In this document: piece by piece, positions 7,157-51,401 of the stretch
Position numbering within the stretch: the first letter of the stretch is position 1
How the letters are laid out: each line of letters opens with the position of its first letter
Sequence record: NC_047822.1
Length of the DNA: 64,000 nt
Strand: one strand, 5' to 3'
Origin: Escherichia phage phiLLS
Translations under genes and position numbers: made by a program
The notes under the pieces: model-generated
What the model saw: only the letters and a program-made list of their open reading frames with translations
Databases searched by the model: none
Told to the model about the DNA's origin: nothing

Positions 7157-7219
7157 TAGATAAATAGGGGCTTCTGCCCCTAGAATCTACTAATTCTCTA
7201 ACTAATCAAGGATATTTTT

Positions 7220-7435: not shown

Positions 7436-7741
7436 TTTAAATCAGGGGGCGAAAGCCACTCTTATTTGGAGAAACTATGCGTAATTTTGTAGCAAAGAAT
7501 GATTTTAACCGTGCTAGCACCCATAAGTCAGCTAGGGATTATACATGACTTTCTAGTCATGAGGTAATGGATGCCTGTTATGAAGAGCTGGAAGGTAGCT
7601 GGAATGAATGGCCCGACTTCTCTATGGAAGAGAACTGGGATGTCAGTGAGGATATGCTTCCTGGTTTTAAAGACCCCAAGAAGTGGGAGTCTATTAAAGA
7701 GACAGCTCTTTAATAGTTTTCTACACAATAAAGGATAAGTT

Positions 7742-8443
7742 ATGAAAGTAAAACCATTTGGTATGCTAGATATTGAATCTCTAGGAACTCCAGGAGATTG
7801 TGGTACTACTCATATCGCAATGCCTTCTTTCGCTTTTGTGGCTATGCATGGGATTGACAAAGACCCTGACTTAGTATTTGTTACTTTGGATGTGCAGGAT
7901 CAGCTTAATTCTGGTGCCAAAGTTACAGCATCTACTCTAGCATTCTGGATGGATCAAGCTAAAAATAGCCCCTCTGCTATTCACATAATGGAAGCTATGA
8001 AGGAACGTAATCCAAAACTGATTGCCTTCCAAAATGGTAAACATCACTGTACTAATAAGCTCGGCTCTAACTATGCTGCCTTCTCTATGGCTCAAAATAT
8101 TATGGAGTTGGCTCTAGGCGAAAATGCTTTGTATTATGGCAATGGCCCAGAGTTTGATATGACTATCTACTCTGCAAACACGTTCCATGCTGGAACCAAT
8201 GAAGAGGTAGTTCCGTGGAAATTCTGGAATTTGGGTAATGTTCGATCTCTTCGTAATCTCTGGATGCAAGCTGGATACAGTTATAAGGCTCTAGAGACCG
8301 AAGCTATTAGCTGGGCAATAGCTAAAATGGAGAAGATGGACACCATTCGTTATGGGATCTATCCGGTTAAGCACGACCCAGCATTCGATGCACTAGTTGA
8401 GGGCTATTGTGTTGCAGCTATGATCGAAAAAATGAAAATTTGA
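7742..8443 (+). CDS. DEDDh-type 3'-5' exonuclease (DnaQ-like)
   Basis: Exo I motif LDIESLG and Exo III-like H-x4-D (HDPAFDA). Confidence 0.6.
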   Translation: MKVKPFGMLDIESLGTPGDCGTTHIAMPSFAFVAMHGIDKDPDLVFVTLDVQDQLNSGAKVTASTLAFWMDQAKNSPSAIHIMEAMKERNPKLIAFQNGKHHCTNKLGSNYAAFSMAQNIMELALGENALYYGNGPEFDMTIYSANTFHAGTNEEVVPWKFWNLGNVRSLRNLWMQAGYSYKALETEAISWAIAKMEKMDTIRYGIYPVKHDPAFDALVEGYCVAAMIEKMKI

Positions 8444-8444
8444 T

Positions 8445-8473
8445 TTGCTTCCGGCTTCAAAATTCTGTATAAT
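8445..8473 (+). promoter_or_regulatory. T5-type early promoter
   Basis: -35 TTGCTT, 17-bp spacer, -10 TATAAT. Confidence 0.55.
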
Positions 8474-8513
8474 ATATTCATAAATTTGAGAAAACAATAA
8501 AAGGAAAACAAAT

Positions 8514-8696
8514 ATGCCAGTATCTAAAAATGTTCGTAAAAATGGTAAGAAAGCTACTCGTAATCTGGGTATCCGTCGTATGGCTGAACGTCAATCAGGT
8601 GTCCAGAAAATCTTTGATCTGCTAAATCGTGCTAATCCTAAAATTGATAACAGTAACGATACTGTTCTACGCACTCTGCTGGCAATTGGTCTGTAA
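8514..8696 (+). CDS. Hypothetical small basic protein
   Basis: 60-aa ORF with RBS after promoter. Confidence 0.45.
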   Translation: MPVSKNVRKNGKKATRNLGIRRMAERQSGVQKIFDLLNRANPKIDNSNDTVLRTLLAIGL

Positions 8697-8749
8697 TAGA
8701 CCAACTTTAAACAAATTCAAATCTCAAACTTCATATAAGGAAGCAAATA

Positions 8750-9388
8750 ATGACTACTCGTATTTCTAAAACTCGCGCTCTAGCAACTATCAAATCTCTG
8801 GAAGCTAAAATCCGTAAAGCTACTGAACAGCAGCTTCTGATCGCTGTTGGTGAAGGTAAGGATAAAAACCAGGTTGTAGTTGGCGCTGCAATCGAAGTAG
8901 CTGATCTGTCTACTCGTATTAAGACTGATTTCCAGTCTCTGCTGGATATGATGTCCCAGCGTGATTGTATCAAAGCTGCTCTGATTAAAAGCAATGCGGA
9001 AACAATCGTTGAGATTGGCTCTCGTAAGATGACTGTTGCGGAAGCAATTGAAGCTAAGCGTTCTATGGAACTTAAAGCCCAATTGCTGGCTAACATGCGT
9101 AAGCAGTTCCATGCCGCTACGGTTAAGTTTAATACGCAGAAAGCACAGTTTGATGCTAAATATGAGCGTTTGCAGGATAGCATGGCTACCCGCGATAAGA
9201 AAACTTCCGAAGATGAAGTTAAAATGCAGCTCAACCTGCTGGAACTCAAGAATACTCCATTCTTGATTGATCCGCTGGAACTGGAAAAGCTGATTAAGCA
9301 GCATGACGAGGAATACCAGGACTTTGCAACAAATGTTGACTTTGTTCTGTCCGAGTCTAACGCCTCTACCTTCATTGAAGTAGAGTAA
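8750..9388 (+). CDS. Hypothetical protein
   Basis: 212-aa ORF with RBS; helical; the overlapping minus-strand ORFs are judged spurious. Confidence 0.55.
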   Translation: MTTRISKTRALATIKSLEAKIRKATEQQLLIAVGEGKDKNQVVVGAAIEVADLSTRIKTDFQSLLDMMSQRDCIKAALIKSNAETIVEIGSRKMTVAEAIEAKRSMELKAQLLANMRKQFHAATVKFNTQKAQFDAKYERLQDSMATRDKKTSEDEVKMQLNLLELKNTPFLIDPLELEKLIKQHDEEYQDFATNVDFVLSESNASTFIEVE

Positions 9389-9771
9389 TAATTTAAAAGC
9401 TAGTAAATCGGTAGACGAAAGCCCAAGCATCTTACCTCGCAGCAGCGGTTGAAATACGAGGTTAAATAAGACCGCTGACCATACTATAAAATATAATCTA
9501 TTGGAGATTATGTTTATTACACCAGCCTTTTAAGCTGACACGTAAGAACAAAGCGTCGTTGATATTACCGACACAACTTCAAAGATCAACATTTAAGTAT
9601 GAAAGCTGAAAAGTTTAAAGAACTCAAACTTCTAAACTTCTAAAGCTAAAAGATGCAAAGTATTCGTTGATGATTCAAACCCTAGATCAAAGGTACATGG
9701 CTCATAAGATATGGCCTGTGGCGCCTCTAGGCTGTTTATCGGTTTACTAGTTTCACAATTTAAAAATGTAT

Positions 9772-9800
9772 TTGCTAATTTACTAAGTTATCTGTATAAT
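9772..9800 (+). promoter_or_regulatory. T5-type early promoter
   Basis: -35 TTGCTA, 17-bp spacer, -10 TATAAT. Confidence 0.55.
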
Positions 9801-9830
9801 ATATTTTTAAATTGATGAAACGAGGCTATT

Positions 9831-10148
9831 ATGACTTTTCATATTTTGATTGATGATGTGCGTAATCTTCACGGAATGGACATTATCATTCGAACCCCAG
9901 AAGCCGCTGTCGAGTTTCTGAATAAAACTGATACCACAGGCCACTTCGTTTATATGGATAATGACTTGGCTGTAGATGGTATGGAAGGTTATCAAATTCT
10001 TCGTTTACTCTTAGAATTTGGGCAGAGACCAAAGAAAGTGGTACTAGTAACCTCGAACCCAGTAGCTAAGCAACATATGCGTAATGATTTGCTTGACTTA
10101 GGGTACAAAGAAAGCCCCAATCGTGTTGAATATGATTGGCAGGAGTAA
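9831..10148 (+). CDS. Hypothetical protein
   Basis: 105-aa ORF with RBS after promoter. Confidence 0.5.
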   Translation: MTFHILIDDVRNLHGMDIIIRTPEAAVEFLNKTDTTGHFVYMDNDLAVDGMEGYQILRLLLEFGQRPKKVVLVTSNPVAKQHMRNDLLDLGYKESPNRVEYDWQE

Positions 10149-10153
10149 AAAGA

Positions 10154-10603
10154 ATGAAGGCAGCTTTGCTTTTAGTAGCTGCCCTTACCTTCAGCTTTAG
10201 TAGTCAGGCATCGCACGATGCAAAAGAAATAGATTGCATTGCTAAAAATATCTATTTCGAAAGTCGTGGTGAGGGCATAAAGGGAATGACGGCGATTGCA
10301 CACGTTACTAAAAACCGTGTAAACTCCGGTAAATTCCCAGATTCCTACTGTAAAGTAGTATATCAGTCTAACCAGTTCTCTTGGGTATCTAAGAGACCAA
10401 AAGTTGATAAAACTGATGAGGCTTGGCAAACCGCTAAGAATTTAGCTAGAGTGATATACTACGTTGATTTACCACAAGATCCTACACATGGAGCACTATA
10501 CTTCCATAGTGGTAAAGATAAACCTTACTGGACAAAGAAGTTTAAGAAAACAACTAAGATTAAGGGACATACGTTTTATAAACCTGTTGTCACTAAAACT
10601 TAA
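10154..10603 (+). CDS. Secreted SleB-like cell wall hydrolase (Hydrolase_2 family)
   Basis: Signal peptide then KNIYFESRGE...TAIAHVTKNR...QSNQFSW, typical of SleB-type hydrolases. Confidence 0.7.
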   Translation: MKAALLLVAALTFSFSSQASHDAKEIDCIAKNIYFESRGEGIKGMTAIAHVTKNRVNSGKFPDSYCKVVYQSNQFSWVSKRPKVDKTDEAWQTAKNLARVIYYVDLPQDPTHGALYFHSGKDKPYWTKKFKKTTKIKGHTFYKPVVTKT

Positions 10604-10611
10604 AAATTTAC

Positions 10612-10640
10612 TTGCTTAAATACTTAAATTTCCGTATAAT
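10612..10640 (+). promoter_or_regulatory. T5-type early promoter
   Basis: -35 TTGCTT, 17-bp spacer, -10 TATAAT. Confidence 0.55.
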
Positions 10641-10671
10641 ACTTCCATAAATTAATGAGAGGAAGCGAAAT

Positions 10672-10842
10672 ATGAAATCAGTTGTAATTATTGGTGTTAA
10701 CACTCGCGGTATTCGTACTACGAAAATTGTTAAAACTTCTAACGTTGCTGAGATCACTACGAACCCTAAAAAGTTTGATTTCGCCAAAGTCTCAGCAGTT
10801 ATGACAGAACAATCTTTTAACCAAGCGTTAGGAATGAAATAA
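10672..10842 (+). CDS. Hypothetical small protein (56 aa)
   Basis: ATG with GAGGAAG RBS after promoter; stop overlaps next start (TAATG); below ORF-track length cutoff. Confidence 0.45.
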   Translation: MKSVVIIGVNTRGIRTTKIVKTSNVAEITTNPKKFDFAKVSAVMTEQSFNQALGMK

Positions 10843-11285
10843 TGGAAGAGAATATTTTAGATGTTTTGCGTAGAGCTTTGCAGGATTCTAAGTTTAATGG
10901 TTCTGATAAAGAAGTCGCTAAAAGCTATCAGACCATAATCGGGGATCTTCAGCGTATTGATAAAGATTTCATCACTTCTGAACAATTTGTGTCTTATCTC
11001 AAAGCTCAACTAAAAAGCATTAACCAGATGAAAGCTAAACTTCATGGTCAAGATCTTGATAGTTATAGCTTGCAGTCCGCTCAGTATGAATACATTCTAA
11101 ATAAGTGGTTGCAGGAGTATCTGCCTCCTCAGTTATCTGATACTGAGATTCGTAAATACTTTGCAGAATTAGTTAAGCTAAACCCTGGAATTACAAAAGG
11201 TATGCTGATGAAAGCGATTAAGGAAGAATTTCCTGGGCGTTACGATGGTGGTACTGCTGCTCAGATTGCTGGCGAATTTAATTAA
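10842..11285 (+). CDS. Hypothetical protein (possible GatB/YqeY-like domain)
   Basis: 147-aa ORF; weak resemblance to YqeY-like proteins. Confidence 0.45.
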   Translation: MEENILDVLRRALQDSKFNGSDKEVAKSYQTIIGDLQRIDKDFITSEQFVSYLKAQLKSINQMKAKLHGQDLDSYSLQSAQYEYILNKWLQEYLPPQLSDTEIRKYFAELVKLNPGITKGMLMKAIKEEFPGRYDGGTAAQIAGEFN

Positions 11286-41918: not shown

Positions 41919-42519
41919 TGTCGGATTTGCACACTGATATTCTAGAAATTTATGGTAGGATTTGCACAAATGCCTAAGTTTTTAGGAACTCTTACTCTCC
42001 TGAAAATAGCAGCATTATTTCGGGCCGAAGGCCCATGATTGCCTGAGTTTTTAGAGCCACAGAAATTTTCACTTGTCAAGCTATTTTGCCCCATTTTGCT
42101 AATAAAATTTCGCTTTTTCTGCACCTATCTCAAATTAACCCAAGTTATCTCACATCTCCTCCAAAATCCCCGCGGATCAGGTGCTCCGCACCAAACATGC
42201 GCTACATCCTTCTAGCCCCCAAATTTCTCTCACTCTCTCATCTTCTCCTCAAACCCACACAATCACACACCCTCCAATCGAAGTCACAAAAATCTTGTCG
42301 GATTCGCACATCTTAATCCTAGAAAAACCGTGTCGGATTTGCACATACTCCACAGGATTGATGCGCAGCATCGGATTGCTGGAGTTTTTGGAAAAATTCA
42401 TTGTCGGATTTGCACACTATAAAAATTTTTCGGGTCGGATTTGCACACTACCAAAAATTGTCGGATTTGCACATACGTGCCCGCACGTAACACCCGTGGA
42501 GCAATGTCGGATTTGCACA
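41919..42519. repeat. Array of at least 6 direct repeats TGTCGGATTTGCACA with degenerate copies
   Basis: Copies at 41919, 42332, 42402, 42435, 42459, 42505; variants at 41957 and 42296; irregular spacing. Confidence 0.8.
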
Positions 42520-42520
42520 A

Positions 42521-42546
42521 AAGCGCAGGGCAATTGCCCTGCGCTA
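42521..42546. repeat. Perfect palindrome agcgcagggcaattgccctgcgct
   Basis: 11-bp arms around a central AATT. Confidence 0.8.
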
Positions 42547-42770
42547 AATACGAATGATAATAAGAATCATTCTCATTTAAAAAGCGGAATGAGAATGATA
42601 ATAATTCGCATTTAGAAAGTGAAATGAGAATCAATCTCATTTAAGAAAGGGAATGAGAACTATTCAAAAAGTGAAATGATTCTCATTTAGGAAAGGAAAT
42701 GATTATCGGTTAGATAGTGGAATGCGAATGATAATGATTTGCATTTAAGAATGGAAGTGAGAAACACTGT
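42547..42770. repeat. Array of about 8 imperfect AT-rich palindromic units (Fur-box-like)
   Basis: Units contain AATGATAAT / GATAATGAT / ATTCTCATT; spacing 21-40 bp, each ending CATTTAAGAAAG-like. Confidence 0.7.
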
Positions 42771-42845
42771 TATTTAAGTTATCCACAGACTTATCAACAG
42801 CACGATTTGACTTGACAGAATCCTAGCCATTTTGAAGCGTTATTA

Positions 42846-42886
42846 ACAGACTTATCCACAGCTTATCCTACTGTATAAATATACAG
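42846..42886. repeat. Inverted repeat, left arm (41 bp, contains a DnaA-box-like TTATCCACA)
   Basis: 40/41 match to the reverse complement of 45894-45934. Confidence 0.85.
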
Positions 42887-43001
42887 TATTCCTACGTAGT
42901 GAATAATTCTAATATACCGCTAAAACGTCCTGAATCGCATTCTAACGCGTTTAATTTTGGTGGGGATACTAAAACAAGGGGGTATTTAACTGGAGGCATG
43001 G

Positions 43002-43023
43002 AAAAACGGGGAGCTAATCCCCG
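43002..43023 (-). terminator. Rho-independent terminator for the minus-strand cassette
   Basis: Minus-strand hairpin cggggattagctccccg followed by TTTTT. Confidence 0.55.
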
Positions 43024-43139
43024 TCGTTCTCAGAGTAGCGGGCAACCGTTACGCTTTGCCCACTCCCGCCACTCATCTTGATGTCTAGATTTGCGACGGC
43101 GTACTAAAAACCGCTTATACCAGTGATTAAACCATCGTT

Positions 43140-43343
43140 TCATAAACCATCCTCCGGTAATTGATGCGTGATCTTTTCCTCTTCCCCATAGGAATCGACC
43201 AAATGCTGATAATAACCATCGTGATCATAAATCACTTTATCATACTCGCCACGCTCGACCGCTTGCCGGTTTTCTGGCGTATCGGGCACGTAAAAAACGT
43301 CAACCATTGTACTGATTTTGGTTACAACAATTTTATTGCTCAT
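43140..43343 (-). CDS. Hypothetical acidic protein
   Basis: 67-aa minus-strand ORF inside the inverted-repeat-bounded segment. Confidence 0.45.
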   Translation of the reverse strand: MSNKIVVTKISTMVDVFYVPDTPENRQAVERGEYDKVIYDHDGYYQHLVDSYGEEEKITHQLPEDGL

Positions 43344-43361
43344 AATAACCCCCGTTATTAA

Positions 43362-43520
43362 TTATTTGCGTAAATATACGCTTGCCAATAGTCCAGCTAG
43401 AAAGCCCGCCGATACACCAAATGAAGCCACACCGGGAACACTAGCACCATGAGCATATAAAGCCCAGCAAATTACATAAGGCAACAACGGAAACATGCCA
43501 GCTATTAAAAACTTTTTCAT
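43362..43520 (-). CDS. Hypothetical small membrane protein (52 aa)
   Basis: Hydrophobic ORF whose ATG overlaps the upstream stop; below ORF-track cutoff. Confidence 0.35.
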   Translation of the reverse strand: MKKFLIAGMFPLLPYVICWALYAHGASVPGVASFGVSAGFLAGLLASVYLRK

Positions 43521-43861
43521 TGCGCCACCTTTCGAAACGCTGTTTCAATACTATCCGCAGTGGATTGAATATACGCGCCTTTCATTACTAGGCGCTCGGT
43601 GCATATCTTGCGGAAAATATTAATAAAATCATCTTCATTTTCTGCAATTAACGCTTCACCCATAACCTGAACGTCACAAGATGCAAAGGTCAAAAATTGA
43701 AACGCTAGTTCACGGGCAACGACCGCATTAATCTTATAATGCGCTTTGCCCTCATAAATATTAATAACGCCCTTATAAGCTGGTGAAAGCTGGTTTAAAT
43801 AGTTTGCTAACAATGCCGGGCGGCAATTAGCAACAAAGCGGTTGCCTTCATAAATAACCAT
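43517..43861 (-). CDS. Hypothetical protein
   Basis: ORF-track 43517-43900; internal ATG at 43861 avoids overlap with the upstream gene. Confidence 0.45.
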   Translation of the reverse strand: MVIYEGNRFVANCRPALLANYLNQLSPAYKGVINIYEGKAHYKINAVVARELAFQFLTFASCDVQVMGEALIAENEDDFINIFRKICTERLVMKGAYIQSTADSIETAFRKVAQ

Positions 43862-43862
43862 T

Positions 43863-44075
43863 TTATAACACCCCACGAAACGCAGCGTAAAAGGTGGCAA
43901 AGTGTTTAACCGTTTCAGCGATCACGTTGCCGCGCTTGTCAAATTTCTTTTCTGTAACACGAAAGGCATTCTTATTACGTGCTACATATTCGATTTTACA
44001 ATCTTCACGCTCGAACGTGTTAACATCCACCAGCTTAAAGCCTTTCGAACGAGCAAGAGAAACGTTGCGGATCAT
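43863..44075 (-). CDS. Hypothetical small basic protein
   Basis: 70-aa minus-strand ORF. Confidence 0.45.
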   Translation of the reverse strand: MIRNVSLARSKGFKLVDVNTFEREDCKIEYVARNKNAFRVTEKKFDKRGNVIAETVKHFATFYAAFRGVL

Positions 44076-44273
44076 TTTTATTCTCCTTTACTAGTCATGC
44101 AGCCCAGCAGATAAGAAAAAACGGCGATACCCGCGCCGACAATAACGGCGTGAACGTCGAAAGCTATAGCAAAAAGTGATAAAATAGCACCCAAGATACC
44201 TGCTAGAATTGACCGAAAAATAACCATTTTCATTCCCCTAGTTAATGGGGCGAAAGTAACGCCCCGTTATTAA

Positions 44274-44504
44274 TTACATTAAAACAATTTTTGCAGCTTG
44301 TTTTTTAGTACAGTGTTCCGCTTTCAGGGTATCCAGCAAAAAGCCCGCTGTTTGCTGATCAATCTTATCAGCGTTGTATAGTTCTTGGATGGTGTTATAG
44401 GTTTTAGCAATGCCGAACTCCTGCACCATTTCATGAATAACAACACGATTAGATACCCAACCTTGCGCGGTGAACAGATGACTAGCAGAAGAATAAGCAA
44501 CCAT
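44274..44504 (-). CDS. Hypothetical protein
   Basis: Internal ATG of ORF-track 44274-44561 preceded by a strong GGAGG RBS. Confidence 0.5.
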   Translation of the reverse strand: MVAYSSASHLFTAQGWVSNRVVIHEMVQEFGIAKTYNTIQELYNADKIDQQTAGFLLDTLKAEHCTKKQAAKIVLM

Positions 44505-44621
44505 TTTAAACCTCCAAATTTTTGGGAAAATTTTCAATCCACCGTTTTGGTGTAAAAGCATTATAACAAAAAAGGCCGCCTATTATGGCGACCTTTACAA
44601 AACTTTACACTAAATTAATTA

Positions 44622-45626
44622 TTACTCGCTTTCGGTGCTAGTGGTAAAAGTAGAAATATCAATACCTTTCACCATTTCATCGATCATTTCAGCGATGTTA
44701 AAACTTTGCACCATTTCTAACATTGCCGCTTCCATAGCGGCCCCTGCTACCGCTTTCGCTTTCTGGTTGCTTGGGGCATACTGGTCAACCGCTACGCTCA
44801 GCAGGTTGGCAATTACTACTCGACCGATAGGCGTATCAATATAACCTTTAATCATGAACGGTGCTTTTTTAGCCGCTACTTTCGTAATTTGAGTAAGTGC
44901 AATTTTACCCGCTTCCAGTTTTGCAGCGTTTACAACAGCGGATTTATTAGCGGCAACAATGTTAGCAATCTTGGTCATAGTATTTTTTCCTTTGTTTTCA
45001 GTGATTTGAGTATTAACGCTTTGAGTGTTAGAATTTACAACATGGTTTTCTGTATTGTCAACTGGTTTTAGCGTAAATCCAGCATTTGCAACATTTGATT
45101 CATTCCCATATTCTAAATAATCGCTAGGGATCAACATGTTGCCACTAGCGCGTTCAAAACATAACACGCCAGTTGTAGAAATTACATCACTATCAGCACT
45201 TTTGTAATTAGCTGATAGTTCACGCCAAATGCTAGTTAATAACGATCCGACACTATCAGTCCTGATATTACTTACTTTTGTTGCTGTTACTTGCTCTTTT
45301 TCTTGCACGTTATATAATCGCGCAATGTAGCCACTATTAGATTCACTATAACCAACAATGATAAAATCAATATCACTCCCACGTTGATTGCGGAAAATGT
45401 GATAATCACGGTTGAAAATTACTAGCGCCCTTTTCTGGTCTAGTAATTGTGTGAAATCTTCAACTGAATAATGAGTATCATTACTGTCTAAAATTTCATC
45501 ATGAATCTTTTCAACCATGCTAGCGGTATGTTGTACACTTGCCGCGCTACTACCATCTAGCAGGTTGCGCAAACTACCCTTTACAATAGTTGCGTTTGCT
45601 GGTACTGCAATTCTAGTAAAAGACAT
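44622..45626 (-). CDS. Hypothetical protein (334 aa)
   Basis: Long minus-strand ORF with GAGGGAG RBS; first gene of the cassette; no motif recognised. Confidence 0.6.
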   Translation of the reverse strand: MSFTRIAVPANATIVKGSLRNLLDGSSAASVQHTASMVEKIHDEILDSNDTHYSVEDFTQLLDQKRALVIFNRDYHIFRNQRGSDIDFIIVGYSESNSGYIARLYNVQEKEQVTATKVSNIRTDSVGSLLTSIWRELSANYKSADSDVISTTGVLCFERASGNMLIPSDYLEYGNESNVANAGFTLKPVDNTENHVVNSNTQSVNTQITENKGKNTMTKIANIVAANKSAVVNAAKLEAGKIALTQITKVAAKKAPFMIKGYIDTPIGRVVIANLLSVAVDQYAPSNQKAKAVAGAAMEAAMLEMVQSFNIAEMIDEMVKGIDISTFTTSTESE

Positions 45627-45893
45627 TTTCTTGTCTCCCTCGTTAATCGGTGAGTAAATGATAAAGGTATTTTCTTTCTAGGGGCAAATATTATTTTACC
45701 TTTTTATTTTCCTTGCCTAGCGCCTAGTTTTATGCTAACCGCGCAGCGGTACAGTAAAGAGCAAAACACGGTGAAGCCGCTAGGGCGGCGCATTGAGGCT
45801 TTACTTTAATATTACCCCCACTGCATTTAGCTCGTTAGAAAGCGATTTAGGCCGCTTAAAATTGATTGCAGTTGTTAACACTACCTTTCTACC

Positions 45894-45934
45894 CTGTATA
45901 TTTATACAGTAGGATAATCTGTGGATAAGTCTGT
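45894..45934. repeat. Inverted repeat, right arm (41 bp)
   Basis: Reverse complement of 42846-42886 with one mismatch; contains CTGTGGATAAG. Confidence 0.85.
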
Positions 45935-46440
45935 GTAAAAGTCCTTATATCGCCGCCTATCGTGTCAAATCATTTTGTGCTGTGGATAACGTTGGGGATA
46001 ACTTAAATGATAGTGGTTCTCACTCAGGCCGATAGTTTCTTATAGTTATTATTTCTATCGGTTACGATTTCTTATAGTTATTATTTCTCATTAATTTATA
46101 AGTATATTATATATTATGGAATAGTTAGTTGGCTAATGAGATTTTCCGTGATTAATAGTCTGCTAATAGTTTAAGCCGTTACAATCCACCAGCATGATTA
46201 TCGTTCTAGCAATTATTAGTCTGCTATCTTTCCGATGCATACTAACAAATAAAAGTCAATTAATTTATTTCATAAAATAAGTAGTTATCCACTGGAAAAT
46301 AAAAGTCAAGTGGATAACTAGGAAAATTTCATTTTTGCTTCTGGGGATAAGTTATCAACAAGGCTAGAATGCGCCTAAAACGCCCTACAACGCAGTAAAG
46401 TTTTTAGCCATCCCATCATAAGGGGATAAGCCGTTTATCG
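45920..46440. promoter_or_regulatory. Cluster of DnaA-box-like 9-mers (TTATCCACA family)
   Basis: GTGGATAAG 45922, TGTGGATAA 45981, GGGGATAAC 45995, TTATCCACT 46285, GTGGATAAC 46310, GGGGATAAG 46343 and 46432, TTATCAACA 46352. Confidence 0.5.
46036..46088. repeat. Tandem direct repeat, 2 x 21 bp (TTTCTTATAGTTATTATTTCT)
   Basis: Identical copies at 46036-46056 and 46068-46088. Confidence 0.8.
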
Positions 46441-46764
46441 CTGCCACGAGCTTTTTAGATTTTGTCAAGTAGGGCAAGGCAAATATAAATGAAAAAATTA
46501 CTTGCTTATCTGCTGGGTTTTATGGTATTCGCGCGCCCGTTTCTTTTAATTTTAGGCCGTCGCCGGACGCGGTGCGAGTATTTGCCTTCTTTACATTTCT
46601 TTACAAAAATAAGGTTGCGCCTTTTTCGTTGTTTGTTATTATTTATCTCGTAGGGCGGCAATGACGAACTACACGGCGGGAAGTTTACCGCCGCGCTCTT
46701 TAAAAATTGGGTATATCTTAAAGTCTATCGGCGGTAAACTTATCAATTATAAGGAATCGACGAT

Positions 46765-46968
46765 ATGAAACAAACTTTACTAATCACTGGTAAACCTAGC
46801 AAGGCACTGGACAGCAAAACAAAAAATTTGTTGACAGTAGCGCAAAGATCGGTAAAATATCGATTTAAGCAGTACAAGAAAGGCCGCCAGCAAGGTCTGG
46901 AAATGATCTGGCGAAATATTATGATTGACCTGAAAGAAAATCATAAAAAACTGCAAAAAATAGTTTGA
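46765..46968 (+). CDS. Hypothetical small basic protein
   Basis: 67-aa ORF with AAGGAA RBS; first + strand gene after the repeat region. Confidence 0.45.
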   Translation: MKQTLLITGKPSKALDSKTKNLLTVAQRSVKYRFKQYKKGRQQGLEMIWRNIMIDLKENHKKLQKIV

Positions 46969-47196
46969 CTTCCTAGCCGATAGGCTTTAAGATGTACCCA
47001 GTTCGATGAGAGTGATAACTTGATACAATTTGACGGCCGGTACTTGCCATAATGTGCCCCGCCCCCTAACTGGGATATAGCGGCCTGAGTGGAGTTCTTT
47101 AATTTGATTATAATGGCGAGTGGATTTTTTCTTATTATCTGCTACTTTCTAGCAGATAATGCGGAACAATCCACTGAATAAACTGGAGTTTATACC

Positions 47197-47448
47197 ATGA
47201 AAAACGTTATTACCGCGCCGAAAGTTGGTCAATCCGTTTTTATTCCTTTCGTTACTAAAACGGACGAATTAACCGGAAAAGCCGAACGTATTAAAGGTGC
47301 GGCGCTTATGCCGTTCGATACAATCGACGCGGTATACGCTGAAAATGAACGCAGCAACAACGGAAAGCCCGTTTTTAGCGTTCGCGTTAAATCCGGCGAC
47401 GTTGTAAAGGTTGTTCAACGCAACGAAAAATGGGAAGCTGTGTTGTAA
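47197..47448 (+). CDS. Hypothetical protein
   Basis: 83-aa ORF; 10-bp perfect hairpin downstream. Confidence 0.5.
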   Translation: MKNVITAPKVGQSVFIPFVTKTDELTGKAERIKGAALMPFDTIDAVYAENERSNNGKPVFSVRVKSGDVVKVVQRNEKWEAVL

Positions 47449-47546
47449 TTTAGTGTTAACTTTATATTCCCCTGAAATATGGGGAATATAACGATTAACA
47501 TTATGTTAATCTTATCCCTTAAATTAAATCAACAGGAGTTACAATC

Positions 47547-47954
47547 ATGACTAACGTTAAAACCGCAAAATTCGCATGGAATGAAGAAAACACTCAGAAA
47601 GCTGTTTCCATGTACCAGCAGTTAATCAATGAAAACGGTTTAGATTTCGCAAATAGCGACGGCCTGAAAGAGATTGCAAAAGCAGTAGGCGCGGCTTCTC
47701 CCGTATCCGTTCGCTCAAAATTGACCAGCGCGAAAGCGTATCAGAAAAGCGATAAGCCGCGCAAAGTTGGCGGCGGCAGTTCAATCCGCAAAGCTCACTA
47801 TGTACGCGTTATTGCAAAACATGCCATTGATTCCGGCATTATCAAAGACGCTGACGATCTGGCATCACTGGAAAGCGCAAAACTGGAAACGCTGGACGCA
47901 GTAGCACAACTGTTAGGCGTTGCCGATGAAGTAAAACAAGCCGCAGGCGAATAA
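47547..47954 (+). CDS. Pre-early A2-like protein (putative)
   Basis: 135 aa with AGGAG RBS, immediately upstream of the A1-like gene; assignment from synteny and size only. Confidence 0.4.
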   Translation: MTNVKTAKFAWNEENTQKAVSMYQQLINENGLDFANSDGLKEIAKAVGAASPVSVRSKLTSAKAYQKSDKPRKVGGGSSIRKAHYVRVIAKHAIDSGIIKDADDLASLESAKLETLDAVAQLLGVADEVKQAAGE

Positions 47955-48012
47955 ATTTAATTAGTGGGGAATACTCCCCACTATAATTTCCCTTAAATCA
48001 GGAGTTATTAAA

Positions 48013-48210
48013 ATGATCTTTTACCCTACTGAATCGTTAATTCTAGGCTTGTTTATTATGGCGGCCTCATTACTATTCGCTTATTTTCAAAATGATCTGG
48101 ATTCGTATTATTTTAAGCGCAAAGCTAATCTAGCAAAGCGTTTGGGCTTATTTTGCTTTATTGCCGCCGTTGTTTGTGGTGTTAGTTCTAGCCTGATGCC
48201 GATTAGTTAA
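48013..48210 (+). CDS. Hypothetical small membrane protein
   Basis: 65-aa ORF, two hydrophobic segments, AGGAG RBS. Confidence 0.45.
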   Translation: MIFYPTESLILGLFIMAASLLFAYFQNDLDSYYFKRKANLAKRLGLFCFIAAVVCGVSSSLMPIS

Positions 48211-48306
48211 ATGTTGCAAATTATAACGCCTATTATTCAAGGCGTTATATCTGGCAATATTGCCAATAACAAACGTTTTTAATCCCTTTAATGGAGTTTT
48301 ATTATC

Positions 48307-49977
48307 ATGGTTATTTCCGCAGAAAAACAAACCCAGATCCTCAATCTTGCCGCTGATTTCAATTTCTATGGTAAACGTCTGCGCGCTACTAAACTGGAAG
48401 TTTGTGACGATATATCAAAAGCGGTTTACGATACTGCAAAACATTCCACCGCGATTTGTGACTGGTTGGAAGCAAATAAACCAGCGAAACCAAAAGCGGC
48501 GAAAGTAGCAAAAGCCATTAAAAACGATGACCGCCCTGAAGCCGCCGGAGTTATTTCTAGCACGGTGGAGCAATGGGAAGTAAAGCAGGGCAACCGCTTC
48601 ATTATCACATCAATCCAGAACAACACGTTCCCGCATAAAAACTTTTTAGCCTCGCTCGAGCAATATGCCCAGTTTATTGGCGCTGATTTGCTTGTTAGCA
48701 AGTTTATTTATAACAAAAACGGTTTTCAAAATGGGGAAGGCGCGGACGGAATAAAATACGATTCCGCGTTTGACAAATATATCTGCAATAAGAACGTATT
48801 TTTAAACAATCGCCGTTTTGCTTTCATGGCTGAGATTAATGTTTTGCCCACCGCAGATTATCCGCTATCTGGATTCGCTGAAACTGCAACGGCTTTAAAT
48901 ATTGAGGGTCTGGCAATTGGGGCGGCTAAAATCACCGCCGAAAGCGTGCCAGCTTTAAAAGGTGAAGTAGTGCGCCGCATGTATTCAACGGGAACGGCAA
49001 CGCTAAAAAACTATATTCAGCAAAAAGCAGGGCAAAAAGCGGAGGCGCTACATAACTTTGGGGCGCTGATTGTTGAGTTCGACGAAGACGGTGAATTTTT
49101 TGTTCGCCAGCTTGAAACGATGGATGAAAGCGGCGTTTTTTACGATTTGAATATTTGCGCTACTCCCGCCGGATGCTATGAAACATCGGGGCATGTTTTA
49201 GGCTTGCAATATGGTGACGTCCACGCTGAAAAACTAGATGAAGAGTGCGCCGCAGCGTCATGGGGACACGGTGACACCTACGGGCTTGTGGATATTCTCA
49301 AGCCAAAATATCAATTCGTCCATGACGTGCATGATTTTACATCACGCAACCATCACAACCGCGCCTCTGGTGTATTCCTAGCAAAACAATACGCCGCCGG
49401 ACGTGATAAGGTTCTGGATGATCTTATCGATACGGGGCGCGTACTGGAAGCAATGGAGCGCGATTTCTCGCAAACAATCATTGTTGAATCTAACCATGAT
49501 CTGGCGTTATCTCGTTGGCTTGATGATCGTAATGCTAACATTAAAGACGACCCAGCAAACGCGGAACTATATCACCGCCTTAATGCTGCAATTTACGGAG
49601 CTATTGCAGAAAAAGACGACACTTTCAACGTGCTAGATTATGCGCTGCGCAAGGTTGCAGGCTGCGAGTTTAACGCTATTTTCCTAACGACTGACCAATC
49701 ATTTAAAATTGCAGGCATCGAGTGCGGCGTACACGGTCACAATGGCATAAACGGCAGTCGTGGCAATCCGAAACAGTTCAAGAAATTGGGCAAATTAAAC
49801 ACGGGGCACACTCATACCGCCAGCATTTACGGCGGCGTATATACCGCTGGCGTGTCTGGTAGTCTGGACATGGGCTATAATGTTGGCGCGTCAAGCTGGA
49901 CGCAAACGCATGTTATTACCTATGCAAACGGTCAGCGCACTTTGATTGACTTTAAAAACGGTAAATTTTTCGCGTAA
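48307..49977 (+). CDS. Pre-early A1-like protein, metallophosphatase-fold nuclease
   Basis: 556 aa; metallophosphatase motifs GDVH, HDVHD, ESNHD. Confidence 0.6.
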   Translation: MVISAEKQTQILNLAADFNFYGKRLRATKLEVCDDISKAVYDTAKHSTAICDWLEANKPAKPKAAKVAKAIKNDDRPEAAGVISSTVEQWEVKQGNRFIITSIQNNTFPHKNFLASLEQYAQFIGADLLVSKFIYNKNGFQNGEGADGIKYDSAFDKYICNKNVFLNNRRFAFMAEINVLPTADYPLSGFAETATALNIEGLAIGAAKITAESVPALKGEVVRRMYSTGTATLKNYIQQKAGQKAEALHNFGALIVEFDEDGEFFVRQLETMDESGVFYDLNICATPAGCYETSGHVLGLQYGDVHAEKLDEECAAASWGHGDTYGLVDILKPKYQFVHDVHDFTSRNHHNRASGVFLAKQYAAGRDKVLDDLIDTGRVLEAMERDFSQTIIVESNHDLALSRWLDDRNANIKDDPANAELYHRLNAAIYGAIAEKDDTFNVLDYALRKVAGCEFNAIFLTTDQSFKIAGIECGVHGHNGINGSRGNPKQFKKLGKLNTGHTHTASIYGGVYTAGVSGSLDMGYNVGASSWTQTHVITYANGQRTLIDFKNGKFFA

Positions 49978-50050
49978 ATAAATCAGGTTGGCGGCTTGAA
50001 ATATGGCCGCCATTATAAAAGTTTATTAAATTAATTGGAGTTTTATAAAT

Positions 50051-50443
50051 ATGAAAAAGCAAAATATCCCATTCGATCGCGCTCAGTCTTCTATTGTTCT
50101 AGTTTATTCTAGTGGTGAGCGCTATCACGTCGAGGCGGGGCACGTTGTTGATGATTTAATCGAGTTTAACGAGGCGCTACAGATCACTACTTTCGCCTAT
50201 ACCACGGGCAAACTATCAAGCCGCATCAAGGCGAAAGGCGTTTATATTGACACGATGAAGCAGGAAACGATTATCATTGACGCGGTGAAGTCCGGTCTAG
50301 CCTTTGCAGTTGTCGCGCCTTGTCCCGCTTGTCTTGATGATCAGTTAATGAGCGCGAAGGTATTCACATGCGCGGGCATTCGTTCCAGCGTATCAGGTGA
50401 GGATATTAGTTTTATCGCTGATGCGCTTGCGTTTGGCCTTTAA
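50051..50443 (+). CDS. Hypothetical protein
   Basis: 130-aa ORF with GGAG RBS. Confidence 0.5.
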   Translation: MKKQNIPFDRAQSSIVLVYSSGERYHVEAGHVVDDLIEFNEALQITTFAYTTGKLSSRIKAKGVYIDTMKQETIIIDAVKSGLAFAVVAPCPACLDDQLMSAKVFTCAGIRSSVSGEDISFIADALAFGL

Positions 50444-50517
50444 TAGCTGGACTAGTCCAGCCCATCCAGCGGGCTGGATTAATTTAATTTAATCCCTTAA
50501 ACGGAGAACGTAACAAA

Positions 50518-51237
50518 ATGAAGATTACCCGTAATTTCCCGCATGTTTCCCGCGTCATGATTTGGGATCTGGATGGCACTATCGTTAACTCATTCCATCG
50601 CGTAGCGCCTTGCTTTGATAGTGAGGGCAATCTAGATCTAAATAAGTATAAAAATGAAGCGTGTAAACATGCTTTGATAATGCAAGATACACTGTTACCG
50701 CTTGTTACCTATATGCGCCAGTGCATGAATGACGCCAACACGTTAAACATTATTTGTACCGCTCGACTAATGAGCAAATCAGATTACTATTACCTACGGA
50801 AGCAAGGGCTGCGAGGGCGTGGGGGTAGCAATATCCGCGTATTTTCCCGCGATACACTGCACAAATATTTTGAAGCTGATAAGGTTAGCGAAATATACCA
50901 CAGCAAAGACGCTATATATAAAAGCCACTATTTTGAGTTATTTAAGCAATTATATCCGAACGCTGATTTCACGATGATTGATGATCATAAAGGCGTGCTA
51001 TCAGCGGCGGCATCATACGGATTTAAAACGCTGGACGCGCAAGCCGTTAACGATATTCTATCGATTGGGGTTACATTGATAGGTGAAACCTTTATCGATG
51101 AATCTCTTGAGGATGATAATGATTATCAGTTCCTGGCCGACCGCCTGCAATTATGTTGGGAAGGTATGACCGAAGAAGAACGCGCAGAATATAGTTGCAG
51201 CCCGCAACAATATATTGAGAAATTAAAAGTTGCGTAA
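50518..51237 (+). CDS. HAD-superfamily 5'-deoxyribonucleotidase-like protein (dmp-like)
   Basis: HAD motif I (IWDLDGTIV) near the N-terminus; 239 aa. Confidence 0.5.
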   Translation: MKITRNFPHVSRVMIWDLDGTIVNSFHRVAPCFDSEGNLDLNKYKNEACKHALIMQDTLLPLVTYMRQCMNDANTLNIICTARLMSKSDYYYLRKQGLRGRGGSNIRVFSRDTLHKYFEADKVSEIYHSKDAIYKSHYFELFKQLYPNADFTMIDDHKGVLSAAASYGFKTLDAQAVNDILSIGVTLIGETFIDESLEDDNDYQFLADRLQLCWEGMTEEERAEYSCSPQQYIEKLKVA

Positions 51238-51401
51238 TAATTAAAGTTGAAATTGTTTCACCTTGCAATTAAAATGGTTGCAGGGTGAAACAGTTAGCAT
51301 GGTAATAGTAACGGGGGTGGCGGTTAGCAGACTAAGTATTTTCGCCGGAGGCAGTGAGCACATCCTCATGTGTAATCTTATGAAATTTCGAGATTTCCAA
51401 A

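What the first reader, a model, noticed from the sequence alone, without database searches (positions are those of the whole stretch)
45894..46760. DnaA-box-like motif cluster with tandem direct repeats
At least eight 9-mers matching or nearly matching TTATCCACA occur in both orientations within about 550 bp, together with two identical 21-bp tandem repeats and duplicated TTAGTCTGCTA motifs, in AT-rich DNA. It resembles an origin-like or DnaA-titrating locus rather than a promoter, and it does not resemble E. coli oriC (GATC is rare).
Basis: partly seen in the sequence, partly recalled or inferred. Interest (0 to 1): 0.55.

Follow-up and report, generated by a model that had tools for sequence, protein, structure and literature searches.

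The report
T5-type terminal-repeat DnaA-box region
This is the conserved non-coding centre of the terminal repeat of a T5-like phage, whose DnaA-box arrays were already described and proposed (never tested) to help pause DNA injection, so it is a real but largely known feature, not a replication origin.

Summary
Eight DnaA-box-like 9-mers lie in 441 bp (45920-46360); 300 simulated sequences never gave more than four in 450 bp. The 21-bp repeats and the TAGTCTGCTA pair are also there.

The window is a T5-like phage, reversed relative to T5, with one collapsed terminal repeat (about 42.0-51.36 kb). The finding is the homologue of T5 untranslated Repeat Regions 1+2, between the T5.011-type operon (- strand) and T5.009/hdi/A2/A1/dmp (+ strand).

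Boxes 45920, 45932, 45981 and 45993 form the published 131-bp IRD-spacer-IRC block. Its inverted copy (42756-42886) sits at the injection-stop region 3.1 kb away. Davison (bioRxiv 2020) described these boxes and proposed that membrane-bound DnaA arrests first-step DNA transfer. This remains untested.

In 28 distinct relatives, variation in these boxes falls mainly on position 5, as the consensus TTWTNCACA allows, which favours real DnaA recognition.

Two points add to that preprint:
- A second cluster (46285-46360), whose three-box core is kept in distant relatives but lost in T5 itself.
- An AT-rich repeat of variable copy number between the two clusters.

An origin role is unlikely. Verdict: already known, low to moderate interest.

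The parts
45894..46024 (-). 131-bp IRD-spacer-IRC block (T5 'IRCspacerIRD', Repeat Region 2). It is the inverted copy of 42756-42886.
   Evidence: blastn to T5 AY587007 6022-6487 (80.7%) and, inverted, to T5 9263-9462. T5 annotation of IRC 6022-6060 and IRD 6112-6152. The pairwise alignment of the two window copies shows arms of about 40 bp nearly identical and a divergent spacer. No length variation in 36 loci.
45894..45909 (.). Palindrome CTGTATATTTATACAG (T5 palD type) at the outer edge of the IRD arm.
   Evidence: Read from the sequence. Invariant in both paralogous copies across relatives. T5 annotates palindrome D at the equivalent place of the partner copy.
45920..45940 (-). DnaA-box pair TTATCCACA / TTTTACACA, 3 bp apart, same orientation.
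   Evidence: In relatives the variants are TTATCCACA/TTATTCACA and TTTTACACA/TTATCCACA/TTTTGCACA; apart from TTATATACA in 2 of 28, they fit TTWTNCACA.
45981..46001 (-). DnaA-box pair TTATCCACA / TTATCCCCA, 3 bp apart, 61 bp from the first pair.
46036..46088 (+). Two identical AT-rich 21-mers (TTTCTTATAGTTATTATTTCT), 32 bp start to start: a variable-number repeat.
   Evidence: Relatives carry 1-4 copies; the segment is replaced by the hegG HNH gene in T5-type relatives. Annotated as repeat_region in phage oldekolle. 46032-46131 is 81% A+T.
46125..46226 (+). Motif family TTAGTNNGCTAA: 46125-46137 TTAGTTGGCTAAT, 46155-46165 ATAGTCTGCTA, 46216-46226 TTAGTCTGCTA. Not related to DnaA boxes.
   Evidence: Conserved in relatives that lack the HNH gene. 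A further exact copy lies at 51325-51335(-), 26 nt from the T5-equivalent genome terminus.
46282..46320 (.). Imperfect palindrome (15-nt arms, 9-nt centre). Each arm carries TTATCCACT (46285+, 46309-).
   Evidence: (I5). 46309(-) is kept in distant relatives. 46285(+) occurs only in the allele shared by about 120 phage records. T5-type phages have a different palindrome here.
46342..46360 (.). Convergent box pair TTATCCCCA(-) / TTATCAACA(+), 1 bp apart.
   Evidence: The same positions hold TTATACAAA / TTATTAACA in L037/L039 (annotated by me as Epseptimavirus-like) and the Sugarland-like L040. Degenerate in T5.
45837..45862 (.). Homologue of T5 inverted repeat B'; its partner IRB maps to about 46363-46388.
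   Evidence: Coordinates projected from the T5 annotation. Complementarity read by eye is only about 12 of 16, and the repeat finder did not report the pair.
46489..46653 (+). Small ORF (54 aa) of doubtful coding status.
   Evidence: phrog_17446, E 2e-21. The N-terminal MKKLLAYLLCFVVFARPFLLIL is conserved, but the frame and length downstream vary and T5 lacks a start codon.
46661..46768 (+). 35-codon homologue of T5.009; its stop overlaps the hdi start (ATGA).
   Evidence: Sequence read set against the NC_005859 annotation T5.009 4915-5022. 46654-46765 is about 97% identical across 28 relatives.
46705..46732 (.). IRA' arm; its partner IRA is at 46976-47003.
   Evidence: the repeat finder I1: 28 nt, 89% complementary. 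T5 IRA' 4950-4974 and IRA 4682-4706.
42756..42886 (+). Partner block IRD'-spacer-IRC' in the injection-stop region, outside the finding. Boxes at 42779 TTATCCACA, 42791 TTATCAACA, 42840 TTATTAACA and 42852 TTATCCACA, all on the + strand.
44622..45626 (-). Left flanking gene, T5.011-type pre-early gene (334 aa).
   Evidence: phrog_4263, E 6e-160. Position relative to T5 ORF011.
46765..46968 (+). Right flanking gene, homologue of T5.008 (hdi, host division inhibitor); followed by A2 (47547-47954) and A1 (48307-49977).
   Evidence: phrog_4718, phrog_1725 (DNA binding protein) and phrog_1745 (DNA transfer protein). T5.008 sits at 4715-4918 with promoter P-H22 inside it. hdi as described in bioRxiv 10.64898/2026.04.02.716235.

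Best explanation
Shown. The finding is the central untranslated region of the roughly 9.3-kb terminal repeat of a T5-like phage (Demerecviridae), the part of the genome that enters the cell first. It lies between two divergent pre-early operons and is the homologue of T5 Repeat Regions 1+2.

Shown. Its left part is the 131-bp IRD-spacer-IRC block, which carries two pairs of DnaA boxes. An inverted copy of that block, with four more boxes pointing towards it, lies 3.1 kb away in the injection-stop region.

Shown. A second cluster of four DnaA-like boxes lies 280 bp to the right of the block. The two clusters are separated by an AT-rich repeat of variable copy number and by a second, unrelated motif family.

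Inferred. The boxes are genuine binding sites for host DnaA. The two inverted blocks act together as cis sites that hold or organise the first-step-transfer DNA at the cell envelope. This is Davison's proposal that membrane-associated DnaA contributes to the pause between first- and second-step DNA transfer. On that view this locus, 5.0-5.4 kb from the entering end, is the upstream partner or a secondary hold point. The stop itself is at the copy 8.5 kb from the end.

It is not a replication origin.
For: Identity.
- blastn to T5 is colinear over the whole repeat, and the flanking genes match.
- The T5 annotation supplies IRC, IRD, IRA', IRB and the promoters.
- 506 phage records, almost all T5-like, match the 1.6-kb region.

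Non-randomness.
- 8 boxes fall in 441 bp, against at most 4 in any 450 bp of 300 simulations.

Constraint that fits DnaA.
- In 28 distinct relatives the four cluster-A boxes keep positions 1 and 2 invariant. The minor-allele fraction is at most 0.04 at positions 4, 7, 8 and 9, 0.07-0.08 at positions 3 and 6, and 0.30 at position 5. This follows TTWTNCACA.
- At 45932 the three alternatives TTTTACACA, TTATCCACA and TTTTGCACA all satisfy the stringent consensus.

Geometry.
- Box offsets 27/39/88/100 within the block are fixed in all 36 loci, although the flanks are full of indels.
- The 61-bp pair spacing and the convergent orientation persist in relatives whose A2 is only 66% identical.
- The two paralogous copies share their arms but not the spacer.

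Second cluster.
- Its three-box core keeps the same spacing (+33, +10) in L037/L039 and the Sugarland-like L040.
- Within the allele carried here it is the least variable 100 bp of the intergenic region (pi 0-0.025, against a mean of 0.10).

Literature.
- Davison, bioRxiv 10.1101/866236, describes eight boxes in IRC, IRD, IRC' and IRD'. It also cites a second first-step-transfer band of about 5.8 kb seen by Rhoades in 1979, close to IRC.
- PMC10644984 and PMC13250531 repeat the DnaA-box description for BF23 and Bas33.
Against: - No experiment shows DnaA binding or any phenotype. PMC10644984 says explicitly that functional studies are lacking.
- The whole untranslated region is highly conserved, not only the boxes. 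The conserved arms (about 40 bp) extend well beyond the 9-mers. Another protein, for example the phage DNA-binding protein A2, could be the real ligand.
- Five of the eight sites here deviate from the stringent consensus. TTATCCACT has T at position 9, which as far as I recall even the relaxed consensus does not allow (own knowledge).
- T5 itself has lost the second cluster and one box of the first, so not all boxes are needed.
- The relatives are closely related, so the substitution counts are not independent events.
- From memory, unverified here: T5 was reported to grow in host dna(ts) mutants. If that includes dnaA, DnaA cannot be essential for infection.
Confidence: 0.45

Rival explanations
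1. DnaA-dependent, oriC-like replication origin. DnaA bound to the two box clusters would open the AT-rich repeat between them.
For: Eight boxes flank 46032-46131, which is 81% A+T and the second most AT-rich 100 bp of the 64-kb window. The AT-rich segment is made of direct repeats. No other DnaA-box cluster exists in the window apart from the inverted partner.
Against: - The AT-rich repeat has 1-4 copies among close relatives. In T5-type phages, which are fully viable, the hegG gene replaces it.
- The second box cluster is missing in T5.
- The same box block is duplicated in inverted orientation next to the injection-stop site with no AT-rich partner.
- Davison, citing electron-microscopy mapping, places T5 origins near the middle of the molecule and notes that replication genes arrive only with the second-step DNA.
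- There is no GATC at all and no homology to any E. coli chromosome.
Confidence: 0.05
2. DnaA sink. The boxes (12 per repeat, two repeats per genome, multiplied by replication) sequester host DnaA to block host initiation or to alter DnaA-regulated transcription. They would have no role in DNA transfer.
For: There are four perfect and eight near-consensus boxes per repeat. The substitution pattern is DnaA-like. The region enters first and is present before anything else.
Against: - T5-type phages degrade host DNA within minutes through pre-early functions, so blocking host initiation looks redundant.
- Fixed geometry, convergent inverted blocks and the conserved non-box arms are not needed for a simple sink.
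- There is no similarity to host datA or DARS loci.
Confidence: 0.12
3. The repeats are operators for a phage-encoded protein, for example the DNA-binding dimer A2 or the A1/A2 complex. The likeness to DnaA boxes would be incidental or only partial.
For: - The conserved arms are about 40 bp, much longer than a 9-mer, and include a 16-bp palindrome.
- A2 is encoded 1.2 kb away, is a DNA-binding protein and is required for second-step transfer.
- The cluster-B palindrome is replaced in T5-type phages by a different palindrome at the same place. That pattern is what one expects of an operator that changes together with its binding protein.
Against: A2 is 93-100% identical between phages that carry the two different alleles of cluster B, so A2 does not co-vary with that site. 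The variation within the boxes follows the host DnaA consensus closely. Nothing is known about the sequence specificity of A2.
Confidence: 0.2
4. Transcriptional control region. The boxes let DnaA, or another factor, modulate the divergent pre-early promoters or insulate the T5.011-017 operon, which the two inverted blocks bracket.
For: The locus lies between divergent operons. The T5 records annotate promoters in the homologous stretch, P-H22 and P-D/E20 by name. The two blocks bracket the leftward operon, with cluster A upstream of its promoter and the partner block after its terminators. Promoter-like hexamer pairs are about twice as frequent as in shuffles (12 against 5.6).
Against: Cluster A is 200-370 bp upstream of the T5.011-type start codon, and none of the boxes overlaps a strong -35/-10 pair. 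I could not place a convincing sigma-70 promoter on cluster B on either strand (own reading).
Confidence: 0.13

Closest known systems
Phage T5 Repeat Regions 1 and 2 of the left terminal repeat, including 'IRCspacerIRD' (annotated in AY587007; analysed by Davison, bioRxiv 10.1101/866236)
   Same: Same position between the A2-side and T5.011-side operons. 80-88% nucleotide identity. Same 131-bp block with boxes at identical offsets. Same inverted partner at the injection-stop region. IRA/IRA' are present.
   Different: - This phage lacks the hegG HNH gene that splits regions 1 and 2 in T5. In its place it has an AT-rich variable repeat and two TAGTCTGCTA motifs.
- It has all four boxes in the block, where T5 has three.
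- It carries a second cluster of four DnaA-like boxes that is degenerate in T5 and is not mentioned in the accessible text of the 2020 preprint.
T5 injection stop signal region (Repeat Region 3, IRD'spacerIRC' plus DRE/DRD repeats)
   Same: The 131-bp block is its inverted paralogue (78% identity in this window), with the same box pairs, 3-bp gaps and 61-bp pair spacing.
   Different: The finding lies 5.0-5.4 kb from the entering end, not at the boundary of first-step transfer at about 8.5-8.8 kb. It also lacks the DRE and DRD repeat arrays found there.
Chromosomal DnaA-box loci of E. coli (oriC, datA, DARS)
   Same: Clustered 9-mers of the TTATCCACA family, some perfect and some weak. An AT-rich stretch lies close to them.
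   Different: No sequence homology to any of 5,426 E. coli genomes. No GATC. Boxes are paired with 3-bp gaps, whereas the oriC low-affinity arrays have 2-bp gaps (own knowledge). The AT-rich part is not conserved. There is no evidence of initiation or of DnaA-ATP turnover.

Membership tests
T5-type terminal-repeat untranslated Repeat Regions 1+2 (IRC-spacer-IRD) | Lies inside the long terminal repeat, between the hdi/A2/A1/dmp operon and the divergent T5.011-type operon. | tested here: met
   Colinear blastn to T5 1-11000. The alignment continues across the repeat's outer boundary into the T5 right-end unique sequence. PHROG hits for A1, A2 and the T5.011-type and T5.008-type genes. T5 annotations.
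T5-type terminal-repeat untranslated Repeat Regions 1+2 (IRC-spacer-IRD) | 131-bp block homologous to T5 6022-6152, with an inverted copy near the inner end of the repeat. | tested here: met
   45547-46024 matches T5 6487-6022 at 80.7%. 42756-42886 matches T5 6022-6152 at 77.8%, inverted. Pairwise alignment of the two window copies.
T5-type terminal-repeat untranslated Repeat Regions 1+2 (IRC-spacer-IRD) | Two pairs of DnaA/DnaA* boxes per block, 3 bp within a pair, fixed spacer between the arms. | tested here: met
   45920/45932 and 45981/45993. Offsets 27/39/88/100 are identical in all 36 loci, T5 included. The partner block has 42779/42791 and 42840/42852.
T5-type terminal-repeat untranslated Repeat Regions 1+2 (IRC-spacer-IRD) | Inverted repeats IRA/IRA' and IRB/IRB'. 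| tested here: inconclusive
   IRA/IRA' is clear (46705-46732 and 46976-47003, 89% complementary). IRB/IRB' maps by projection to 46363-46388 and 45837-45862, but complementarity is only about 12 of 16 by eye and the repeat finder did not report it.
Injection stop signal proper (iss) | Located just inside the first-step-transfer boundary (about 7.9% of the genome; T5 coordinate about 9618). | tested here: not met
   The T5-equivalent terminus maps to about 51360 and T5 9618 to about 42576. The finding is 5.0-5.4 kb from the terminus, and the partner block at 42756-42886 is the one next to the boundary.
DnaA-dependent origin (oriC-like) | Cluster of DnaA boxes. | tested here: met
DnaA-dependent origin (oriC-like) | Conserved AT-rich unwinding element next to the boxes. 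| tested here: not met
   An AT-rich repeat is present here (81% A+T). Its copy number varies from 1 to 4, and the hegG gene replaces the segment in T5-type relatives.
DnaA-dependent origin (oriC-like) | Replication initiates there. | not testable with these tools
   The only literature available here is Davison, who cites EM mapping of T5 origins near the genome centre. The Bas33 coverage data in PMC13250531 give no origin position.
DnaA-dependent origin (oriC-like) | E. coli-type GATC clustering. | tested here: not met
   0 GATC in 867 bp.
Host DnaA-regulatory loci (datA / DARS) | Sequence homology to the host loci. | tested here: not met
   blastn (word size 11) of 45880-46480 against 5,426 complete E. 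coli genomes gave no match at E <= 0.01.
Host DnaA binding site (functional DnaA box) | Specific binding of DnaA protein. | not testable with these tools
   Indirect evidence only: the substitution pattern follows TTWTNCACA. PMC10644984 states that experimental studies are lacking.

The most novel reading that the evidence does not exclude
In most T5-like lineages, though not in T5 itself, the terminal repeat may carry a three-part DnaA-box system of about 12 sites. The parts would be the two inverted 131-bp blocks and a third, previously unremarked cluster (46285-46360), whose core is conserved as far as Sugarland-like Klebsiella phages. In phages without the hegG gene, this third cluster and the IRC block bracket the most AT-rich DNA of the repeat. 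If DnaA really assembles there, the centre of the first-entering DNA could be a DnaA-driven unwinding or anchoring element. That would make it a second, earlier checkpoint of DNA entry, or a site where the entering DNA is opened. T5, the model phage, would be the atypical member, having lost this element through invasion by a homing endonuclease.
Probability: 0.1. Interest if true: 0.6.

Novelty: already known. Interest (0 to 1): 0.28.

Why it matters
How T5 stops DNA injection after about 8% of its genome, and restarts it, has been open since the 1960s. The DnaA-box arrays are the only concrete candidate so far for a contact between host and phage DNA, and nobody has tested them.

This window adds no new kind of element. 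It does show that a typical T5-like phage has more boxes than T5 itself: 12 per repeat, in three clusters. It also shows that the variation within the boxes follows the DnaA consensus. That sharpens the design of the obvious experiments, namely which sites to mutate and which phage to use. For genome annotation, it is a reminder that a cluster of DnaA boxes in a phage need not mark an origin.

Tried and rejected
- Rfam scan of 45500-47300 at E <= 1. Only three sub-threshold chance hits (two miRNA families and DapZ), so no known RNA.
- Homology of 45880-46480 to E. coli chromosomes, to test a host-derived datA, DARS or oriC fragment. No match.
- Terminator scan. None found in 45500-47300. The cluster-B palindrome is AT-rich and is not followed directly by a T-run, so I do not read it as an intrinsic terminator. 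The T5-type allele (GGTCTTGA...TCAAGACC TTTT) looks more terminator-like.
- Placing a sigma-70 promoter on cluster B, on either strand, by hand. No -35/-10 pair with acceptable spacing is conserved between the two alleles.
- Reading the DRD repeats of the stop region (GTCGGATTTGCACA) as extra DnaA boxes. They contain ATTTGCACA, one mismatch from TTWTNCACA. However, the conserved unit is 14 nt and some copies have C at box position 4, so they probably belong to another ligand.
- The small ORF 46489-46653 as a gene. The N-terminus is conserved but the frame is not kept. Left undecided.
- Access to Davison 2015 (Bacteriophage 5:e1086500). It is not held, and the 2020 preprint has no supplementary text held. 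I did not look up Wang 2005 or Heusterspreute 1987. I therefore cannot rule out that the second cluster was mentioned in any of them.
- Literature search for experiments on DnaA and T5 transfer or origins. Nothing beyond the 2020 preprint.
Full report
**1. What is in the sequence**

Reading 45400-47300 and scanning for TTATCCACA with at most one mismatch, or the stringent consensus TTWTNCACA, gives eight sites inside the finding. They fall into two groups.
- Cluster A, all on the - strand: 45920 TTATCCACA, 45932 TTTTACACA, 45981 TTATCCACA, 45993 TTATCCCCA. They form two pairs, each with a 3-bp gap, and the pairs are 61 bp apart.
- Cluster B: 46285(+) and 46309(-), both TTATCCACT, forming the arms of an imperfect palindrome. 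Then 46342(-) TTATCCCCA and 46352(+) TTATCAACA, which converge with 1 bp between them.

The whole window holds 37 one-mismatch sites, against 18.9 +/- 4.3 in shuffles. The maximum in any 450 bp is 8, and 300 first-order Markov simulations never exceeded 4.

The other items in the finding are also present.
- The two 21-mers (46036-46056 and 46068-46088) are identical but 32 bp apart start to start.
- TTAGTCTGCTA occurs once exactly (46216) and once with one mismatch (46155), 61 bp apart.
- GATC is absent from the 867 bp, with 2.9 expected. That is not significant.
- 46032-46131 is 81% A+T, the second most AT-rich 100 bp of the window.

**2. Where we are**

A megablast of 45600-47200 hits 506 phage records. 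Almost all are T5-like phages of Salmonella, Escherichia and Klebsiella, and the best reach 92-95% identity. The 14 kb around the finding match at about 89%.

blastn against T5 AY587007 1-11000 is colinear but reversed:
- window 50023-51356 matches T5 1360-5
- window 46255-50015 matches T5 5418-1665
- window 45547-46024 matches T5 6487-6022
- window 41838-43363 matches T5 10356-8854

The T5 left terminus (TGTCCACTGCC...) maps to about 51360. Beyond it the window continues into the sequence that precedes the right terminal repeat in T5. To the left it continues into the early region that follows the left repeat. The window therefore holds one collapsed copy of the terminal repeat, at about 42.0-51.36 kb.

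The flanking genes agree with this:
- a T5.011-type gene at 44622-45626 (-)
- a T5.008/hdi homologue at 46765-46968
- A2 at 47547-47954 (phrog_1725)
- A1 at 48307-49977 (phrog_1745)

The last 100 bp of the finding are, by my reading of the sequence, not non-coding. 46661-46768 is a 35-codon homologue of T5.009 whose stop overlaps the hdi start. That would explain why 46654-46765 is about 97% identical in all relatives.

**3. Identity of the element**

The T5 record annotates inverted repeats C (6022-6060) and D (6112-6152), B and B', A and A', and several pre-early promoters in the homologous stretch. Davison's preprint (bioRxiv 10.1101/866236) calls these Repeat Region 1 (4682-5310) and Repeat Region 2 (6022-6209). 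It notes that an HNH endonuclease gene splits them only in T5 and a few other phages. This window has the unsplit form.

Cluster A is the 131-bp 'IRCspacerIRD' block. Its inverted copy (IRD'spacerIRC') is at 42756-42886, with boxes at 42779, 42791, 42840 and 42852 on the + strand. That places it in the homologue of T5 Repeat Region 3, where the injection stop signal is thought to lie. The two window copies are about 78% identical. The roughly 40-bp arms are almost the same and the spacer is divergent.

Davison described exactly this arrangement: eight DnaA/DnaA* boxes, two in each of IRC, IRD, IRC' and IRD', in pairs 3 bp apart with a constant spacer. He credits the first sighting to a 1987 paper. 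He proposed that membrane-bound DnaA holds these boxes and thereby stops first-step transfer, with A1/A2 releasing the block. Later papers repeat the description and state that experiments are lacking. The core of the finding is therefore already in the literature.

**4. Tests with related sequences**

I fetched 40 loci around A2 homologues from viral contigs, plus T5 and phage oldekolle. This gave 28 distinct versions of the intergenic region.

(a) The geometry of cluster A is fixed. Box offsets 27, 39, 88 and 100 in the block are identical in all 36 loci that could be anchored, although the flanks differ by hundreds of bp. In relatives whose A2 is only 66% identical, the 61-bp spacing and the convergent orientation of the two blocks persist.

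(b) The substitution pattern inside the cluster-A boxes follows the DnaA consensus. The minor-allele fractions for positions 1-9 are 0, 0, 0.07, 0.03, 0.30, 0.08, 0.02, 0.04 and 0.04. At 45932 the three alternatives found (TTTTACACA, TTATCCACA, TTTTGCACA) all satisfy TTWTNCACA. I take this as the best available computational support for DnaA recognition. Two caveats apply: the phages are closely related, and the whole region is conserved.

(c) Cluster B exists as two alleles. The allele in this window occurs in 12-13 of the 28 sequences and in about 120 phage records at 95% identity or more. T5 and the other hegG-carrying phages have a different sequence of about 100 bp with its own palindrome (GGTCTTGAtTTTTAAAAgTCAAGACC) and no box-like 9-mers.

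The cluster-B core is nevertheless old. L037/L039 (which I labelled Epseptimavirus-like) and the Sugarland-like L040 keep three sites at the same spacing (+33, +10), as TTATCCACT, TTATACAAA and TTATTAACA. About 270 further records match that part at about 81%. Within the allele carried here, 46274-46373 is the least variable part of the intergenic region (pi 0-0.025, against a mean of 0.10).

All hegG-positive sequences carry the box-less allele. I infer that T5 lost this cluster together with the invasion by the homing endonuclease, through a co-conversion tract. This cluster is not mentioned in the accessible text of the 2020 preprint. I could not read the earlier papers.

(d) The 21-bp repeats are a variable-number AT-rich repeat, with 1 to 4 copies among relatives. 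The segment is occupied by hegG and its promoter in T5-type phages.

(e) The TAGTCTGCTA motif belongs to a separate family (TTAGTNNGCTAA; 46125, 46155, 46216). A further exact copy on the opposite strand at 51325-51335 lies 26 nt from the T5-equivalent genome end, and it is also present in T5 itself.

**5. What it most likely does**

*Shown:* the position, the homology, the non-random and conserved box arrays, the inverted partner, and the consensus-like variation.

*Inferred:* host DnaA binds these sites, and the two inverted blocks act in cis on the first-entering DNA.

The geometry fits a role in DNA transfer better than a role in replication. DNA enters from the end at about 51360. Cluster B would then be inside the cell after 5.0 kb, cluster A after 5.4 kb and the partner block after 8.5 kb. 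The T5 shear point (9618) projects to about 42576, only about 200-300 bp beyond the partner block. Davison also cites a second, unexplained transfer band of about 5.8 kb in T5, close to IRC.

I therefore adopt his model as the working explanation, with modest confidence (0.45 for the whole statement). My confidence that DnaA binds is higher, and my confidence in the transfer role is lower.

**6. Rivals**

*Origin (0.05).* The look is origin-like here: boxes, then very AT-rich repeats, then boxes.
- The AT-rich part is neither conserved in number nor present in T5.
- Cluster B is missing in T5.
- The block is duplicated at the stop region.
- There is no GATC and no host homology.
- T5 origins were mapped mid-genome, according to the literature cited.

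*DnaA sink (0.12).* Possible, but it looks redundant given rapid degradation of host DNA, and it does not need the fixed geometry.

*Phage-protein operator (0.20).* The long conserved arms, and the replacement of the cluster-B palindrome by a different palindrome in the other allele, speak for it. Against it, A2 does not co-vary with the alleles, and the box variation follows the host consensus.

*Transcriptional control or insulation of the divergent operons (0.13).* The location fits, but no box overlaps a convincing promoter.

**7. Known or new**

The locus is a member of a described element in a close relative of T5, so I rate it 'already known'. The increments are:
- the extra cluster and its phylogenetic distribution
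- the consensus-shaped variation
- the variable AT-rich repeat
- the terminus-linked motif

These are useful for designing experiments, but they do not change the picture. Interest is 0.28. The biological question behind the element, the mechanism of two-step injection, is old and open, but this finding does not newly open it.

Noticed in passing
window 51325-51335 (- strand), with 46125-46137, 46155-46165 and 46216-46226: The exact 11-mer TTAGTCTGCTA of the finding recurs on the opposite strand 26 nt from the T5-equivalent physical genome end (T5 1-40: TGTCCACTGCCTCCGGCGAAAATACTTAGTCTGCTAACC). By eye, the similarity to the central copy extends over about 39 bp (TAGTCTGCTAA...CCGTTAC.AT..CCA). 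Three exact copies of the 10-mer TAGTCTGCTA in 64 kb are far more than my rough estimate of about 0.1 by chance. This could be a site for an end-binding or packaging protein, or a promoter -35 module.
   Followed up: partly
window 46262-46372, compared with L002 (T5) 5300-5420, L009 and L020: Two deeply divergent alleles of a segment of about 100 bp sit between conserved flanks. Each has its own palindrome at the same place. The box-less allele is carried by every relative that has the hegG HNH gene next to it, and by two that lack the gene (L020, L027). This looks like a co-conversion tract of a homing endonuclease.
   Followed up: partly
window 46036-46088 and the homologous place in L003, L013, L019, L020, L026, L027, L034: The AT-rich 21-mer is a variable-number repeat with 1 to 4 copies among close relatives. 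This is typical slippage variation.
   Followed up: yes
window 46489-46653 (+): A 54-codon ORF hits phrog_17446. Its first 22 or so codons (MKKLLAYLLCFVVFARPFLLIL) are conserved in relatives. Downstream the frame, length and even the start codon vary. It is either a very short hydrophobic peptide or conserved non-coding DNA.
   Followed up: partly
window 46661-46768 (+): A 35-codon homologue of T5.009 was missed by the 40-aa ORF list. Its stop overlaps the hdi start codon (ATGA), which suggests translational coupling. [quoted passage not shown]
   Followed up: partly
window 41922-42520 (+): Seven copies of GTCGGATT(T/C)GCACA (the T5 'DRD' repeats), all in one orientation. Each contains ATTTGCACA, one mismatch from TTWTNCACA. 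The conserved unit is 14 nt and some copies break box position 4, so it is probably the site of a different protein.
   Followed up: partly
window 47119-47175: A long inverted repeat (26-nt arms, 85% complementary, 5-nt loop) lies just upstream of the 83-codon T5.007-type gene, inside the stretch that the T5 record annotates as promoter P-D/E20. Its centre (TTATCTGCTA/TAGCAGATAA) resembles the TAGTCTGCTA motif.
   Followed up: no
window 42540-42760: A dense array of AATGAGAAT/ATGATAAT-type direct and inverted repeats (the T5 DRE / DRC / palindrome E-I region) lies between the partner DnaA-box block and the DRD repeats.
   Followed up: no
window about 42000-51360: The window contains a single terminal repeat joined on both sides to unique sequence (left-repeat context on one side, right-repeat context on the other). 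The source record is therefore a collapsed or circularly permuted assembly of a genome with long direct terminal repeats.
   Followed up: yes
window 46021-46034 and 47078-47091: A 14-nt inverted repeat (CACTCAGGCCGATA / TAGCGGCCTGAGTG, 13 of 14 complementary) links the edge of the IRC arm with a site downstream of hdi, 1043 nt away. It may be chance.
   Followed up: no
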